Part shown: piece by piece, positions 37,343-42,241 of the stretch
Layout: each line of letters opens with the position of its first letter
How positions within the stretch are numbered: position 1 is the stretch's first letter
Source of the DNA: a virus
Lineage: Duplodnaviria; Caudoviricetes
Length of the DNA: 42,241 nt
Reading direction: 5' to 3' (one strand)
IMG/VR virus record: IMGVR_UViG_3300037590_000130
Span: 1 to 42,241 of that record
The notes under the pieces: generated by a model
What the model was told of the DNA's origin: nothing
Databases searched by the model: none
The model's input: the letters and a program-made list of their open reading frames with translations, nothing else
Position numbers and translations under genes: made by a program

Positions 37343-38440
37343 ATGGCAAATACCGTTCTGGTAAAACGAACGACCGTGGCCGGCCGGGTGCCCAGCACGG
37401 CACAACTCGCTGCGGGAGAGTTGGCGGTGAATGTCACCGACGGAAAGCTGTTCCTGAAGCGTGTCTCCGGGTCCGAAACCGTGATCGAACTTGGACAGAC
37501 TGGGCCGCAAGGCCCCACCGGGCCGACCGGTCCCCAAGGTGCGGCCGGGCCAGCAGGACCAAAGGGAGATGCTGGCGCGACAGGAGCAACGGGTCCACAG
37601 GGCCCAACAGGTGCCACGGGTCCAACGCCGGCGCATCAATGGTCTGGCACGAGCCTTCGGTTCTATACCGGCACCGCCTGGGGCGCTTACGTAAATCTTA
37701 AGGGGGCAACTGGTGCCACAGGGGCAACCGGTGCAACTGGGCCTCAGGGCGACGCCGGCCCAACTGGACCGCAAGGTCCGGCAGGTCCGACCGGGGCAAC
37801 AGGCACAAAAGGTGACACAGGCCCGACAGGTCCTCAGGGCCCAACGGGTGCCACAGGACCGACGCCCGCCCATCAATGGTCCGGAACCAGCCTGCGCTTT
37901 TACAACGGTTCCACTTGGGGGGCTTACGTCAACCTGAAAGGCTCAACAGGTGCGACGGGGGCAACAGGTGCGACAGGCCCTCAAGGTCCCGCGGGAGCAG
38001 ATGGGTCTCCCGATACCGCGGCACAGGTTCTGGCCAAGCTGGTGACCGTGGATGGGTCTGGCTCTGGCATTGATGCCGACCTTCTCGATGGCAACCACGC
38101 CAGCGCCTTTGCCCGGCTGTCGGGAGCGACCTTTAGCGGTGTCGTGACCGCCCCGAACTTCGTCTCCTCCTCAGACGCGCGCCTCAAATCCGACATCGCA
38201 CCCATCGCAGATGCGCTGGCAAAAGTGCGGGCGCTGACTGGGGTCACTTTCGCCATGGCGGGCTGTGATACCCGACAGATGGGCCTCATCGCGCAAGACG
38301 TGCAGGCGGTTTCGCCGGAGGCTGTCGTCGAGACGGAGGGCATTCTGCGCCTCGCTTATGGCAATCTCGTGGGCCTCCTCGTGGAGGCCATCAAGGACCT
38401 CGCAAAGGAGGTCGACCAGCTGAAAAGGACCGCACCGTGA
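37343..38440 (+). CDS. Collagen-like tail fibre with S74 chaperone
   Basis: Three G-X-Y runs separated by [36 protein letters not shown]...GLIAQDV. Confidence 0.9.
37590..37990 (+). repeat. Internal 79-aa (237-nt) duplication in the collagen fibre
   Basis: CATCAATGG at 37634 and 37871; protein near-identical, synonymous sites diverged. Confidence 0.85.
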
Positions 38441-39339
38441 TCGAGACCGGGCTTTATGCCATCACCAATTGCGGCGTGCCGCGCCATTACGCGGTCGATG
38501 TCAAACCTGATTATGTATCAATTGCCGTCTTCGAGTTCGCAAACCCTGGTACGGCAAACGGCATGGGCGGGGTCATGCTCTGGGCCGATCTACTAGCTCA
38601 TCTCGAGGCGCGGCCTGCCTTTGGCAATCAGGCGGGCTTTGTGGATCTGGCCTATAATGAATGTTTTGTCCCAGATCTTCCTGACGCGCCGATGGGAGCG
38701 ATCTACAAGGGTCGATCTTGCCTCTTTGTCTCAGGGATGCGGGGTCATGACGAGATCGTTGATCACGCGCTGATCGACATGGCTGTCGGCGCTGACGGAC
38801 GGCCGCTCTCCTGGCGCAACCGCTTTGCGCAATCCGCCCGCGAGAAGATCGACACTTCTTTCCGCTACCGGGCGCGCGAGAGCATCTCGAACGCGCTGGT
38901 GGTATTTCTGCCTGTCGTGGTGCCCTTCGATCAGACCCGGATCGAGGTCCTGTGTCAGATCCCGCCAATCCTGTTGAACGGCACGATGCAGACACGCGAA
39001 ATCAACGATGCGACGATCCCGAAGGACGGGCTCTGGTACAAGCAGTTCTACTTCCATGGCTTGGGCCCAGAGGCTGCCACCGTGCCAGCCGGTGGGCGAG
39101 TGGATGTGCCTGTGGCGCTCAAATGGAACGCGGATGGCTCCGCCTTTGCCCATGCCGTCGCGCTGAAGCTCGAGAGTGATGCGGGCTATCTGCCAAAAAG
39201 CCGCCTCTTCACGGGCACCGATGGCACGGGCAGCTTTGCCATCGAGGCGCTTGGGCTCTCCCCAGGCGATCGCATCACAGTGAAGCTCAACACCGAGCAT
39301 TACACTGCGATCGGCAAGATTGTTTTGGAAGTGGTCTGA
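38437..39339 (+). CDS. Uncharacterised protein, C-terminal Ig-like beta-sandwich suspected
   Basis: GTGA overlap with the fibre gene; beta-strand pattern in the last ~90 aa ([35 protein letters not shown]). Confidence 0.7.
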
Positions 39340-40079
39340 TGGAAATCCCAACCACGAGTGAATTCCAGCTGATCTATCCGAGCTTCGTGCTGCACAAACA
39401 TTGGGAGATGCCCGAGGGCTTCAATGACCGCCTGCATACGTTGGCGGCCGAGGACGCGGTGGCGAACCGCATTCAAGATTCTGGCGACGGGCGCAATGTC
39501 GGTGATGACACAAACCATCTTGGACATCTGCGCCACAACTTCTTGATGGATCGGCGCGACCCGGCGCTTGCAGTGCTGGCGCAGATGGTCGCCGCTGGGG
39601 TCCGGGAATATCTGCAACTCGCCTATGGCTACGATCATAACGGCGAAATCCGCATGATGTCGGACACCTTCTGGCAGCGACGCTTGTTGCGCGAGAACGT
39701 CGGTATCAACGCCCACACCCATATCCAGACTGACATCGTCTGCACCTATTATCCGCGCGTGGTCCTGGATGCGGATTGCCCGGACACTTCACTTCATCGC
39801 GGTGCGGTGCGGTTTTACGATCCGGCCAATGTCGGCAAGCGGCTTTGGCCCTGTAATAACCCGGACGCCTATGTCGGCGGCTGGTATGCGGTCGAGCCGC
39901 GCACGGGCTCGATGGTCGTGTTCGAGGGGCATCTGCCGCACGATAGCACCTATTTTGAGGGCGAGGAGCGGATGTGCATCCCGGTCCTGTGCTCCCTCGA
40001 ACTCCCGAATTCCCACTGCAAGGCCAGTCTCACAGAGATCCTGGCCCATCAGGCACAAGGAGCATCCCATGGCCTATAA
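39339..40079 (+). CDS. Putative 2OG-Fe(II) oxygenase (TIGR02466 / 2OG-FeII_Oxy_5-like)
   Basis: NAHTH...VCTYY, RFYDP, PRTGSMVVFEGHLPH, ERMCI. Confidence 0.8.
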   Translation: MEIPTTSEFQLIYPSFVLHKHWEMPEGFNDRLHTLAAEDAVANRIQDSGDGRNVGDDTNHLGHLRHNFLMDRRDPALAVLAQMVAAGVREYLQLAYGYDHNGEIRMMSDTFWQRRLLRENVGINAHTHIQTDIVCTYYPRVVLDADCPDTSLHRGAVRFYDPANVGKRLWPCNNPDAYVGGWYAVEPRTGSMVVFEGHLPHDSTYFEGEERMCIPVLCSLELPNSHCKASLTEILAHQAQGASHGL

Positions 40080-40377
40080 GGTCGGAACCACCATCGTGAT
40101 CGATGACAGCGGCAATGTGGATTGGTCGCGCATCGCCAATAAACCCGCGATCGGTACGGGCGATATCAGCGATGTGTCGGTTGTAAATGGTACGCCGACA
40201 TCCGGTGCCACGGGGGCGCAAGCCGTCTATGGCATCGGCAGCGTCAACACAAATTGGGGCGGAACGGCCACCTACAACTGCTACGTCGAGAGCTTGTCCG
40301 GCGGCGGCGCGGCGGGGTCGGTCACGATCACGGCAAACCGTAAGACCTTCAACTGTAACTGCGCCTGCAGGTGCTGA
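40069..40377 (+). CDS. 102-aa Gly/Thr/Ser-rich fibre-like protein with C-terminal CxCxCxC; candidate rSAM substrate
   Basis: ATG 40069 with AAGGA; in frame with ORF 39769..40377; WSRIANKP fibre motif; ends FNCNCACRC. Confidence 0.8.
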   Translation: MAYKVGTTIVIDDSGNVDWSRIANKPAIGTGDISDVSVVNGTPTSGATGAQAVYGIGSVNTNWGGTATYNCYVESLSGGGAAGSVTITANRKTFNCNCACRC

Positions 40378-40379
40378 CG

Positions 40380-41006
40380 ATGGAGGTTCGCAGTACCACT
40401 TTGGAGCTCTGGCCGACGCGGGTCACCTTCTTTGAAACGCCCGTCGATTGGCCAGTGAACCGACAGCTGGCAGATCAGGCCGTTGCGGCAGTTTGTAGTT
40501 CTGGCACGCGTCTGTCTGCGGCCGAGCGCCGAGTGCGGGGCATTCTCGAGCGCAGTGACGCCGGCCAAACCCTGAAAGCCCATCTCTTCGTCTGCGCGCG
40601 TGCCGTCCTCGGCCCCTGGGCTCGATATCTCGACTCCGATCATTGCGAAAATCGTGCCCTCGTCATCGAGCCCGGCGGCTTCATCTCAACCCACAAGGAC
40701 AGCCGCGAGGGCGACCTGACCTGCGTCCACTTTCTGACCGGCAGTGGGTCGGTCCAGCCAGTGAATTCCATAGGCACCCCGCGCTTCGTGATCGAGGATC
40801 CGTCGCGGTACTTCGATGAGGGGCGGCTGCCTTATGAGAGCCGCCATGGCTACTCGGTCAACCCGCGGCCGGGGCTCTCGGTCTTCTTCCCCTCTCATAT
40901 CCCCCATAACCAGCACCCCTACGAGGGGAGCGCGCCGCATGTACAGGTGGTCGCGAACTTCCGCGTCAACCTGCCCGTGGCCATCGAGGAAAGGCTGTTC
41001 GACTGA
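40380..41006 (+). CDS. Second putative 2OG-Fe(II) oxygenase
   Basis: STHKD (HxD), IEDP, PRPGLSVFFPSHIPH, VVANF. Confidence 0.8.
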   Translation: MEVRSTTLELWPTRVTFFETPVDWPVNRQLADQAVAAVCSSGTRLSAAERRVRGILERSDAGQTLKAHLFVCARAVLGPWARYLDSDHCENRALVIEPGGFISTHKDSREGDLTCVHFLTGSGSVQPVNSIGTPRFVIEDPSRYFDEGRLPYESRHGYSVNPRPGLSVFFPSHIPHNQHPYEGSAPHVQVVANFRVNLPVAIEERLFD

Positions 41007-42241
41007 TGTGGTTTGATCTGACATTGGAAGCGCGTGACGGCAGCCGTCACCAAGTGCGCTACAACCCCCACACCTCCGAATGCGAAGGGCTGTCGCTGCC
41101 CATCGAGCCGGGAATCTTCGCGCCGGTACCGCGCGTGGCCAAAGACAAGCCCCTCGGAAAATCCCGCGCCCCCCGCATCCTGAAAATCCAACTCGGCCTG
41201 TCGTGCAATTATGCCTGCAGCTATTGCAGCCAGGCCTTCCAGATCGCCGATGCCACGGTCTCGAAGCTGGCCGATGTCGAGCACTTCCTGACCCAACTTG
41301 ACGGTTGGATCACCGACGCCCCGGAAAAGATCGAGCTCTGGGGCGGGGAACCTTTCCTCTACTGGGCCAAGATCAAGCGACTGATCCCCGCGCTGGCAGA
41401 GCGTTTTCCGGCAGCGCGCTTCTCTATCGTCACGAATGGTTCGCTCTTCTCCCGCGAAAAACTGGATTTCATTGCCGAACACGACATTGAAATCACGATC
41501 TCGCATGACGGGCCCGGTCAGCATCTGCGCGGGCCGGATCCGTTCGACGATCCTGCCAAGCGCCAATGGATCGAAACCTTGTTGGCCGAGCGCCCGGAAA
41601 AGATCGGGTTCAATGCAGTGCTAACGCGCGAGCGTCACGACCTTCGGGCGCTCAAGGACTGGTTCGCCGAAAAGGTCGGGCCGGACATCTTTGTTGGGCT
41701 CGAGGGCGTCGTGAATGTCTATGACGCCGCGACCGCCATCGGAACGGGACGGTTCGAGCCTGCCGAACTGAACAGCCTAACGCGGTCGATCTTCGAAGCA
41801 CTGGTTGAGGACCCGAATGCCTTCAGTCTCGGAGAACGCATCAACGAATTCTATGCCTCGATTCAGCGTCGGCGGCCGATCGAAGCCCTTGGCCAGAAAT
41901 GCGGCATGGACAGTACCGAAGCCATCGCTGTCGACCTGCGCGGGAACGTCATGACCTGCCAGAACACCGGGGCAAAGGGGGCGCACAAGATTGGCCATGT
42001 CGCCGAGTTTGACGCCATCGCGCTCGATACCGCGACGCATTTTGCCTTCCGAGAGGAATGCATGTCATGCCCCGTCGTTCAGCTCTGCAAGGGGTCCTGC
42101 ATGTTCCTCGAAGGCGAGTTCTTCAAGCAGAGCTGCGCCAACGAGTTTGCCTTCAACATGGGGATCATGATGGCGGCGGTCTGGCATTTGACGGGGATGG
42201 TGGTAGTTGGGGTGGAATGTGGCAGATTGCCGTCCCCGTAA
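41006..42241 (+). CDS. Radical SAM / SPASM domain protein
   Basis: [22 protein letters not shown]...C...[14 protein letters not shown]...C (7-Cys SPASM with CX2CX5CX3C); stop at 42239-42241. Confidence 0.93.

What the first reader, a model, noticed from the sequence alone, without database searches (positions are those of the whole stretch)
38437..42241. Phage-encoded RiPP-like system for modifying a fibre protein: rSAM/SPASM + two 2OG-Fe(II) oxygenases + CxCxCxC substrate
Seen: five tightly coupled genes (GTGA, TGATG, 11-nt overlap, 2-nt gap, TGATG) continue the fibre operon. They encode an unknown 300-aa protein, oxygenase 1, a 102-aa protein ending NCNCACRC, oxygenase 2, and a radical SAM enzyme with CX3CX2C plus a full 7-Cys SPASM motif. 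Established: SPASM rSAM enzymes typically act on peptides/proteins (sactipeptide and ranthipeptide thioether formation, PqqE, anSME), and 2OG-Fe(II) enzymes hydroxylate protein residues. Inference: the cluster cross-links and hydroxylates the Cys-rich small protein, which looks like a virion fibre component rather than a secreted peptide, since no protease, transporter or immunity gene is seen. This would be RiPP-type chemistry applied to a phage receptor-binding structure. I know of no characterised example but cannot verify novelty.
Basis: partly seen in the sequence, partly recalled or inferred. Interest (0 to 1): 0.93.

Follow-up and report, generated by a model that had tools for sequence, protein, structure and literature searches.

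The report
Radical-SAM-tailored, swappable phage fibre tip
This prophage carries five linked genes after its tail fibres, and related prophages have either all five or a different fibre-tip module in the same spot; one gene's iron-sulfur enzyme likely cross-links an asparagine-cysteine repeat on a small protein predicted to cap the fibre, a step I found in no paper searched.

Summary
Observation confirmed: five coupled genes, a 102-aa protein ending NCNCACRC, and a radical SAM enzyme with all ten motif cysteines. The window is a provirus; close relatives lie in Rhodobacteraceae genomes.

The repeat and the enzyme travel together: 64 of 80 enzyme-first loci have a repeat; 28 of 33 repeat-first loci have the enzyme, against 1 of 47 other matches (rule set after viewing). 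Elsewhere the repeat ends 300-700-aa tail fibres or precedes a Hint domain. Among siblings sharing fibre A, 16 of 16 uncut cassettes are complete, and 16 others carry a different module instead, including gp38-like adhesins and fibre-plus-chaperone pairs. The 102-aa protein has a hypervariable loop.

Best reading: the enzyme modifies the repeat, most likely as Cys-to-beta-carbon thioethers, on a fibre-tip protein (0.6). Chemistry, virion location and oxygenase roles are untested. The '2OG' label is weak: both score below the Pfam cut-off. The same enzyme clade also sits in chromosomal YcaO peptide clusters.

Ten literature searches found no description. This scan noted the same system at least eight times before, on other DNA.

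The parts
36357..37340 (+). Side tail fibre A, 327 aa (upstream context)
   Evidence: phrog_2631 tail fibre E 7e-52; used as a cassette-independent probe
37343..38440 (+). Tail fibre B, 365 aa: collagen repeats plus C-terminal S74 intramolecular chaperone; inferred carrier of the tip protein
   Evidence: PF01391, PF13884 above cut-off; residues 223-276 match fibres that end directly in the repeat: L265 E 3e-14, L299, L275, L332
38437..39339 (+). p300: partner of unknown function; C-terminal Ig-like domain (205-300), N-terminal domain not assigned
   Evidence: No Pfam/NCBIfam/PHROG hit; AF2 pLDDT 91.7; Ig-like Z about 10; full-length fold matches only uncharacterised phage proteins, TM 0.84; 831 representatives at E<=0.001
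39339..40079 (+). Oxy1: Fe(II)-oxygenase-like protein, H126-x-H128...H201
   Evidence: PF13759 26.2 bits (cut-off 27), TIGR02466 32.9 (62.5), phrog_81 E 2.5e-9; triad 65/65
40069..40377 (+). 102-aa protein: constant N-terminus, hypervariable loop (about 45-66), beta-hairpin, terminal NCNCACRC repeat; inferred substrate and fibre-tip cap
   Evidence: Alignments; AF2 pLDDT 69.6 with loop and repeat under 50
40351..40374 (+). Codons of the Asn-Cys repeat NCNCACRC
   Evidence: Sequence; C96, C98, C100, C102 invariant in 127 aligned sequences (the loci rows were chosen for ending in the repeat)
40380..41006 (+). Oxy2: Fe(II)-oxygenase-like protein, H105-x-D107...H176
   Evidence: PF13759 16.2 bits, phrog_81 E 2.7e-5; triad invariant in 14 of 14
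41006..42241 (+). Radical SAM/SPASM enzyme, 411 aa
   Evidence: PF04055 38.5 bits, TIGR04085 31.5 bits, phrog_1802 E 1.5e-54; best named family PapB 70 bits against cut-off 340

Best explanation
The five genes form one exchangeable unit after the tail-fibre genes, whose radical SAM/SPASM enzyme likely cross-links the terminal Asn-Cys repeat of the 102-aa protein, which is predicted to cap fibre B as its host-binding tip. Shown from sequence: the unit is all-or-none, swaps with other tip modules, the repeat always lies near a free or releasable C-terminus, and it sits on long fibres in other phages. Inferred steps: (1) fibre B trimerises and sheds its S74 chaperone (family knowledge); (2) the rSAM abstracts a hydrogen from the beta-carbon of Asn/Ala/Asp and joins it to a Cys sulfur activated on an auxiliary cluster, as NxxcB does; (3) oxy1 and oxy2 add optional hydroxylations; (4) p300 serves as chaperone or scaffold; (5) the rigidified tip with its variable loop binds the host receptor.
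For: Enzyme-first: 64 of 80 IMG/VR loci have a repeat within 5 kb; of 16 misses, 4 have variant repeats and 12 have short flanks. Repeat-first: 28 of 33 against 1 of 47, all 28 on the same strand; these enzymes form 10 clusters at 50% identity. Repeat at fibre ends: L064 and L066 (T7-type N-domain plus collagen), L277, L265. Repeat before a Hint domain: JWF gp028, L044, L312, weaker L027 and L030. Slot exchange: 16 of 16 uncut cassettes complete, 16 siblings with none of it and another module. Another group of small repeat proteins shares its N-terminus with the Gly-rich gp38-like adhesins (iE 9e-4 and 0.023 in 50,034 ORFs). Inner x residues: N 196, A 62, R 36, D 32, Gly 0, Ser 0 of 354; NxxcB accepts Asn, Ala, Gln, Asp (PMC9389541). 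CrpC, a 7-Cys SPASM enzyme, puts ranthionines into a protein (PMC13692751).
Against: No biochemical or virion evidence. The rSAM is far below every named maturase cut-off, so its reaction cannot be read from homology. CxC spacing is tighter than the CX2-4 motifs of CrpA. The 102-aa protein's N-terminus shows no significant match to fibre A or to the L206 short fibre. Five chromosomal homologues sit with YcaO, an ATP-grasp-like gene (seen in 4 of 5) and a small peptide ORF, with no fibre seen, so the clade is not fibre-exclusive. The 102-aa protein's divergence does not track the rSAM's (rho 0.07). RP31 virion proteomics lists none of ORF70-76 among 32 proteins (PMC5468394 Table S3); its repeat ORF is unannotated and was presumably not searched. 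The reverse-test rule was fixed after I saw the data, and rows are not independent.
Confidence: 0.6

Rival explanations
1. Same virion tip, different chemistry: the cysteines stay free to bind a metal or Fe-S cluster across the trimer, or become something other than beta-thioethers (alpha-thioether, aldehyde as in anSME, epimer), with hydroxy-Asn/Asp as extra ligands.
For: 3 x 4-7 Cys would cluster at one end of a trimer. Asp/Asn beta-hydroxylase-like genes lie beside the repeat in L135 and L050 (PF05118 above cut-off). Some loci add a second rSAM or a desaturase-like gene. HxH-bound iron in the T4 gp37 needle is a precedent (recalled).
Against: Simple metal binding needs no SPASM enzyme, yet enzyme and repeat co-occur. 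The x residues fit beta-carbon acceptors. The top NCBIfam hit, though weak, is a ranthipeptide maturase.
Confidence: 0.22
2. A lysogen-expressed or released peptide (a true RiPP: toxin, exclusion or signal), not a virion part.
For: The protein is small, with a leader-like constant N-terminus. The same rSAM clade occurs in YcaO peptide clusters. A Hint domain can free a C-terminus.
Against: The repeat ends 300-700-aa fibres elsewhere. The cassette swaps with adhesin and fibre-chaperone modules. No promoter-like site on + in 35300-42241. No protease or exporter is among the five genes.
Confidence: 0.08
3. The rSAM acts on the repeat, but the two oxygenases are prolyl hydroxylases for the collagen part of fibre B.
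For: Fibre B has 33 Gly-X-Y triplets; 2OG enzymes hydroxylate collagen (established).
Against: 11 of 26 close loci have no collagen run in fibre A or B yet keep both oxygenases; L044, L064 and L066 have collagen, repeat and rSAM but no detected oxy1/oxy2 (the short 68-aa collagen ORF was mostly not counted). Oxy1 divergence tracks the 102-aa protein (rho 0.81), though adjacency alone could cause that.
Confidence: 0.07
4. The rSAM and oxygenases are metabolic or DNA-modifying cargo that merely sits beside fibre genes.
For: Phages carry rSAM and 2OG enzymes for base modification (PMC8989533, search listing and abstract start only).
Against: Two-way linkage to the repeat across 10 enzyme clusters; joint loss in 16 siblings.
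Confidence: 0.03

Closest known systems
CrpC/CrpA of Methanococcus voltae (PMC13692751; abstract, sections 8, 12, 14 and term searches of text and supplements seen)
   Same: 7-Cys SPASM rSAM encoded next to a protein with C-terminal Cys motifs; the product is a modified protein, not a cut peptide; a non-enzyme partner (CrpB) is proposed as chaperone.
   Different: TIGR04463 scores 30 bits against 525. CrpA motifs are CX2-4, here alternating xC. CrpC has a predicted RRE. 'phage' occurs 0 times in the text and in the 3 supplements held.
NxxcB/NxxcA, streptococcal RaS-RiPP (PMC9389541, passages seen)
   Same: Cys-to-Asn beta-thioether; tolerates Ala, Gln, Asp, which with Asn make 297 of 354 inner x positions here.
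   Different: NxxC spacing in a short peptide; here 3-12 alternating Cys on phage proteins. No sequence comparison with NxxcB was made.
PapB ranthipeptide maturase (NF047865; PMC12373016, passages seen)
   Same: Best NCBIfam hit (E 2e-19); several thioethers per substrate.
   Different: 70 bits against cut-off 340; PapB needs Asp/Glu or terminal carboxylate acceptors and an RRE-bound leader.
QhpD/QhpC (TIGR03906; mechanism recalled)
   Same: SPASM enzyme cross-linking a small subunit of a larger assembly.
   Different: 47.7 bits against 453; Cys-Asp/Glu links in a dehydrogenase subunit.
gp38-type adhesins and Tfa chaperones capping tail fibres (T2/S16; recalled)
   Same: Small variable protein encoded after an S74-ended fibre; such genes fill the same slot in siblings (L218: phrog_2056 E 4e-7, PF05268 20.2 bits under cut-off 25; L225: PF16778 83 bits).
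   Different: No enzymes and no Cys repeat; the 102-aa protein has no Pfam, NCBIfam or PHROG hit.
Cyanophage Pam3 disulfide-anchored fibres (PMC9942802, passages seen)
   Same: Cysteine chemistry on tail fibres.
   Different: Disulfides at the baseplate end; no enzyme named in the passages read.

Membership tests
Radical SAM/SPASM enzymes | CX3CX2C in a radical SAM core | tested here: met
   C67/C71/C74; PF04055 38.5 bits over 29.5
Radical SAM/SPASM enzymes | 7-Cys SPASM motif | tested here: met
   C299-C377; TIGR04085 31.5 over 27
Named ranthi/sactipeptide maturases (PapB, CteB/SCIFF, CcpM, QhpD, TIGR04463) | Score above the family's curated cut-off | tested here: not met
   70/340, 36.5/425, 48.8/500, 47.7/453, 30/525
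Ranthipeptide-type systems | Co-encoded Cys-rich substrate conserved with the enzyme | tested here: met
   64 of 80 forward; 28 of 33 against 1 of 47 reverse
Ranthipeptide-type systems | N-terminal RRE and leader recognition | not tested
   About 55 residues precede the core; the rSAM was not folded
Ranthipeptide-type systems | Cys-S to non-alpha-carbon thioether in the product | not testable with these tools
   Needs LC-MS/MS
RiPP (strict sense) | Leader removed and core released or exported | tested here: inconclusive
   No protease or transporter among the five genes; the record ends at the rSAM stop and is 72% complete
2OG-Fe(II) oxygenases (PF13759/TIGR02466) | Family score above cut-off | tested here: not met
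   26.2 and 16.2 against 27; TIGR02466 32.9 against 62.5
2OG-Fe(II) oxygenases (PF13759/TIGR02466) | HxD/E...H iron triad and 2OG-binding Arg | tested here: inconclusive
   Oxy2 HxD...H is met, but His187 stands where I recall an Arg; oxy1 has HxH...H, with Arg211 in 54 of 65
gp38-like fibre adhesin | Gp38 domain with Gly-rich motifs | tested here: not met
   No Pfam or PHROG hit for the 102-aa protein
gp38-like fibre adhesin | Gene position after the distal fibre, exchanged among siblings, hypervariable loops | tested here: met
Virion protein | Present in purified particles | not testable with these tools
   Needs virion proteomics

The most novel reading that the evidence does not exclude
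Many unrelated tailed phages build their receptor-binding tip by radical peptide chemistry. A portable (Asn-Cys)n tag, fused to a fibre, released by a Hint domain or carried on a small cap protein, is cross-linked by a dedicated rSAM and tuned by interchangeable oxygenases. The unit is an allele of the host-range locus, on a par with gp38 adhesins, and the same enzyme clade has also been recruited into bacterial YcaO peptide clusters.
Probability: 0.45. Interest if true: 0.93.

Novelty: new variant of a known kind. Interest (0 to 1): 0.82.

Why it matters
If true, host recognition in these phages depends on enzymatic tailoring that sequence-based host prediction and fibre engineering do not take into account. 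It would give a function to a large unannotated family (p300: 831 representatives at 50% identity) and to phrog_1802. It would supply a new thioether-type enzyme clade with hundreds of natural substrates and a short portable tag. It is testable now: cultured Rhodobacteraceae type strains carry the full cassette, and phage JWF carries the Hint form.

Tried and rejected
Complex prediction of p300 with the 102-aa protein: no verdict (score 0.00, controls not folded); no evidence either way.

Fold searches of the 102-aa monomer model found nothing (best Foldseek E 2.7; best VIA Z 2.4), and there was no PDB sequence hit. No useful PDB hit for either oxygenase. ESM Atlas gave no usable hit for p300 residues 1-204 and only rows under 0.9 for the 102-aa protein. 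The p300 N-terminal domain was not folded alone, so it is not shown to be a new fold.

My first idea, that p300 co-varies with the 102-aa protein beyond linkage, was weakened: oxy1, which lies between them, tracks it better (rho 0.81 against 0.54; partial r 0.69 against 0.24).

The opposite-strand control for the forward count gave 7 of 80, but 6 look like the antisense reading of the repeat itself, so it is not a clean control. Pairwise BLAST of L218 against L041 found nothing; only the profile search did.

RNA runs: four small-share metagenomic runs held contigs of relatives across the stretch; they cannot show transcription. No p300 match in cultured phages by tblastn, although jackhmmer and Foldseek point to RSP15 gp047 (the Foldseek row matched by length only). 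No plasmid match at 1e-30. The rSAM tree is the quick version and its backbone is unresolved, so no direction of transfer is claimed.

Literature: 10 searches found no description. PMC12801897, PMC8066314, PMC5468394 and PMC12750041 (passages) only list rSAM genes or unrelated fibres. Subscription papers and bioRxiv supplements were not searchable and could bear on novelty.
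Full report
Setting. The window is a 42,241-bp provirus record, 72% complete, with integrase-like, replication, terminase, portal, capsid, tail, tape-measure, central-fibre, holin and endolysin genes. 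Two side fibres follow the lysis genes: fibre A (36357-37340) and fibre B (37343-38440; collagen plus S74 chaperone). The closest rSAM relatives in named genomes (64-96% identity) are mostly Rhodobacteraceae; 20 of 66 genome loci show all five genes, and many of the rest are fragments or short contigs.

Observation. All five ORFs and their junctions are as described. The rSAM has CX3CX2C and seven SPASM cysteines, each kept in 111-115 of 113-115 homologues. It passes PF04055 and TIGR04085 but no named maturase cut-off; PapB is best at 70 against 340. The oxygenase label needs care. Both proteins fall under the PF13759 cut-off. Oxy1 has HxH...H (65 of 65). Oxy2 has HxD...H, with His where I recall the 2OG-binding Arg.

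Enzyme to repeat. The best 80 of 155 IMG/VR loci found with the rSAM were examined. The 26 closest keep all five genes in order. By a regular expression, 64 of 80 have a Cys repeat within 5 kb. Of the 16 misses, L027, L030, L050 and L068 have variant repeats seen by eye. Ten have under 1.8 kb upstream, and two have under 300 bases downstream, where their relatives carry the repeat.

Repeat to enzyme. Where the repeat ends within 50 residues of a stop in a frame with at least 40 residues before it, an rSAM matching my profile lies nearby in 28 of 33, always on the same strand; among the other 47, in 1. That one (L294) has a repeat followed by a 168-aa extension. I set the rule after viewing the output, and rows include near-copies; the enzymes fall into 10 clusters at 50% identity.

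What carries the repeat. It ends long fibres: L064 (646 aa) and L066 (726 aa) with a T7-type N-domain and collagen, L277, L265, L275, L299, L332. Four of these share a segment with window fibre B (E 3e-14 to 8e-7), so fibre B plus the 102-aa protein looks like a split form of one fibre (inference). In Achromobacter phage JWF gp028, L044 (twice) and L312 the repeat is followed at once by a Hint domain; L027 and L030 have weaker Hint hits, and L065 a similar motif without a Pfam hit. Hint self-cleavage would leave the repeat at the C-terminus (established chemistry, inferred here). Ralstonia phage RSP15 has a fibre ending NCQCGN, a p300 homologue and the rSAM in a row. RP12 and RP31 have an unannotated repeat ORF before three rSAM-like genes.

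An independent probe. Fibre A was used to fetch 79 loci without reference to the cassette; 31 distant matches were set aside. Of 48, 24 have p300 next: 16 with at least 3.4 kb downstream hold all five genes, and 8 are cut by the contig end. Eight are too short to tell (this includes L190, cut inside fibre B). Sixteen have no p300, oxygenase or repeat in 1.1-7.4 kb, and one of them keeps an rSAM fragment. They carry other modules: a short fibre plus a Gly-rich gp38-like protein (L206, L218), a fibre plus assembly chaperone (L225 and kin), or other fibres. The cassette therefore behaves as one allele of the fibre-tip slot. Most of the 16 complete loci are contigs also found. A profile of 13 N-termini from another group of small repeat proteins ranked L218 (iE 9e-4) and L206 (0.023) among its top non-repeat hits in 50,034 ORFs. 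The window protein's own N-terminus gave no such match, so its virion role rests on position, variability and the repeat.

Variation. In 23 close loci (3 divergent and 1 duplicate dropped), the 102-aa protein keeps its ends and varies in residues about 45-66. It falls into types, and p300 is 79-92% identical within types and 61-66% between them, while the rSAM is 85-91% throughout. Distances of the 102-aa protein track oxy1 (rho 0.81) and p300 (0.54) but not oxy2 or the rSAM (0.06, 0.07). There are thus two blocks, joined near the repeat. This fits an rSAM that reads the constant tail, but linkage alone could give it. AF2 predicts a strand and a hairpin with loop and repeat unstructured (pLDDT 69.6). 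p300 folds confidently (91.7), with an Ig-like C-domain and full-length matches only to uncharacterised phage proteins.

Chemistry. In 96 distinct tails the inner x residues are N 196, A 62, R 36, D 32, others 28, with no Gly or Ser in 354, against 84 Gly and 85 Ser in 1,152 preceding residues (not independent; L265 ends CCGC outside the pattern). Every x has a beta-hydrogen, and NxxcB accepts Asn, Ala, Gln and Asp (PMC9389541, passages). CrpC shows a 7-Cys SPASM enzyme installing ranthionines in a protein (PMC13692751). I therefore favour beta-thioethers, at about even odds against other chemistry or metal binding. Collagen hydroxylation is an unlikely job for the oxygenases: 11 of 26 close loci lack collagen in fibres A and B and keep both.

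Against a fibre-only reading. Five chromosomal homologues (45-49% identity; L124, L125, L129, L132, L134) lie beside a YcaO-like gene (Pfam-confirmed in three), an ATP-grasp-like gene in four, and a 55-72-aa ORF with 1-4 Cys, with no fibre seen. They form one clade (support 99) in a quick tree with an unresolved backbone. This supports peptide substrates for the clade and shows it is not confined to virions. Published RP31 virion proteomics lists none of ORF70-76 among 32 proteins (PMC5468394 Table S3), which is expected for enzymes and uninformative for the unannotated repeat ORF.

Novelty. Ten searches of PMC open-access and bioRxiv text found no account of the system; subscription papers and bioRxiv supplements were out of reach. 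Eight earlier AI notes of this scan describe the same pairing on other DNA; they gave me two paper leads and are not counted as evidence. The logic is that of CrpC or QhpD, so I class it as a new variant of a known kind. Its likely role at a phage fibre tip is undescribed in what I searched. Verdict: real, conserved, undescribed; best mechanism 0.6; interest 0.82.

Noticed in passing
L124, L125, L129, L132, L134 (Ramlibacter, Polaromonas and other Proteobacteria), around the rSAM: Chromosomal cluster: YcaO (with nitroreductase in L125, L129), ATP-grasp-like gene, small ORF with a shared FxW..(S)T.I.FM-like stretch and a short Cys core, and an rSAM of this clade; no NCBIfam hit for the two small ORFs scanned. 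Candidate undescribed peptide class.
   Followed up: partly
L027:1390-2575, L030:5229-7065, L033:7182-7981, L047:6885-7510, L312:4704-6036, L028:11-420: Tandem arrays of 2-4 paralogues with the 102-aa protein's N-terminus; some end in the repeat, some in repeat plus Hint, some have no Cys tail.
   Followed up: partly
L069-L073, L076-L078, L080, L294: Repeat followed by SKI(I/V)C and a 100-175-aa extension with no Pfam hit (L294 scanned); possibly another self-removing domain.
   Followed up: no
L083:3822-4110 (Ralstonia phage RP12) and RP31 79645-79821: Unannotated ORF of about 65 aa ending NCNCNCACTRGSL before three rSAM-like genes.
   Followed up: partly
L144-L148, L150, L226: Only the last 40-80 codons of the rSAM remain; in L146, L148 and L226 they follow an alternative fibre module, suggesting replacement of the cassette with a kept 3' end. 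Many provirus records end just after the rSAM.
   Followed up: partly
L111:1376-2836: Holin start fused in frame to the rSAM core, apparently by a deletion of the intervening fibre and cassette genes.
   Followed up: no
L036, L063-L064, L066, L068, L184-L186; L050; L135: Other tailoring genes beside the repeat: a second rSAM, Asp/Asn beta-hydroxylase-like proteins, a fatty-acid-desaturase-like protein.
   Followed up: partly
window 33442-34098 and 37343-38440: The 218-aa fibre before the holin and fibre B share the same S74 chaperone module and the [16 protein letters not shown] junction; either could be the carrier of the tip protein.
   Followed up: no
L100, L102, L110, L126 (Thalassobacter stenotrophicus CECT 5294): One genome holds three full cassettes with different variable loops and one broken copy.
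   Followed up: no
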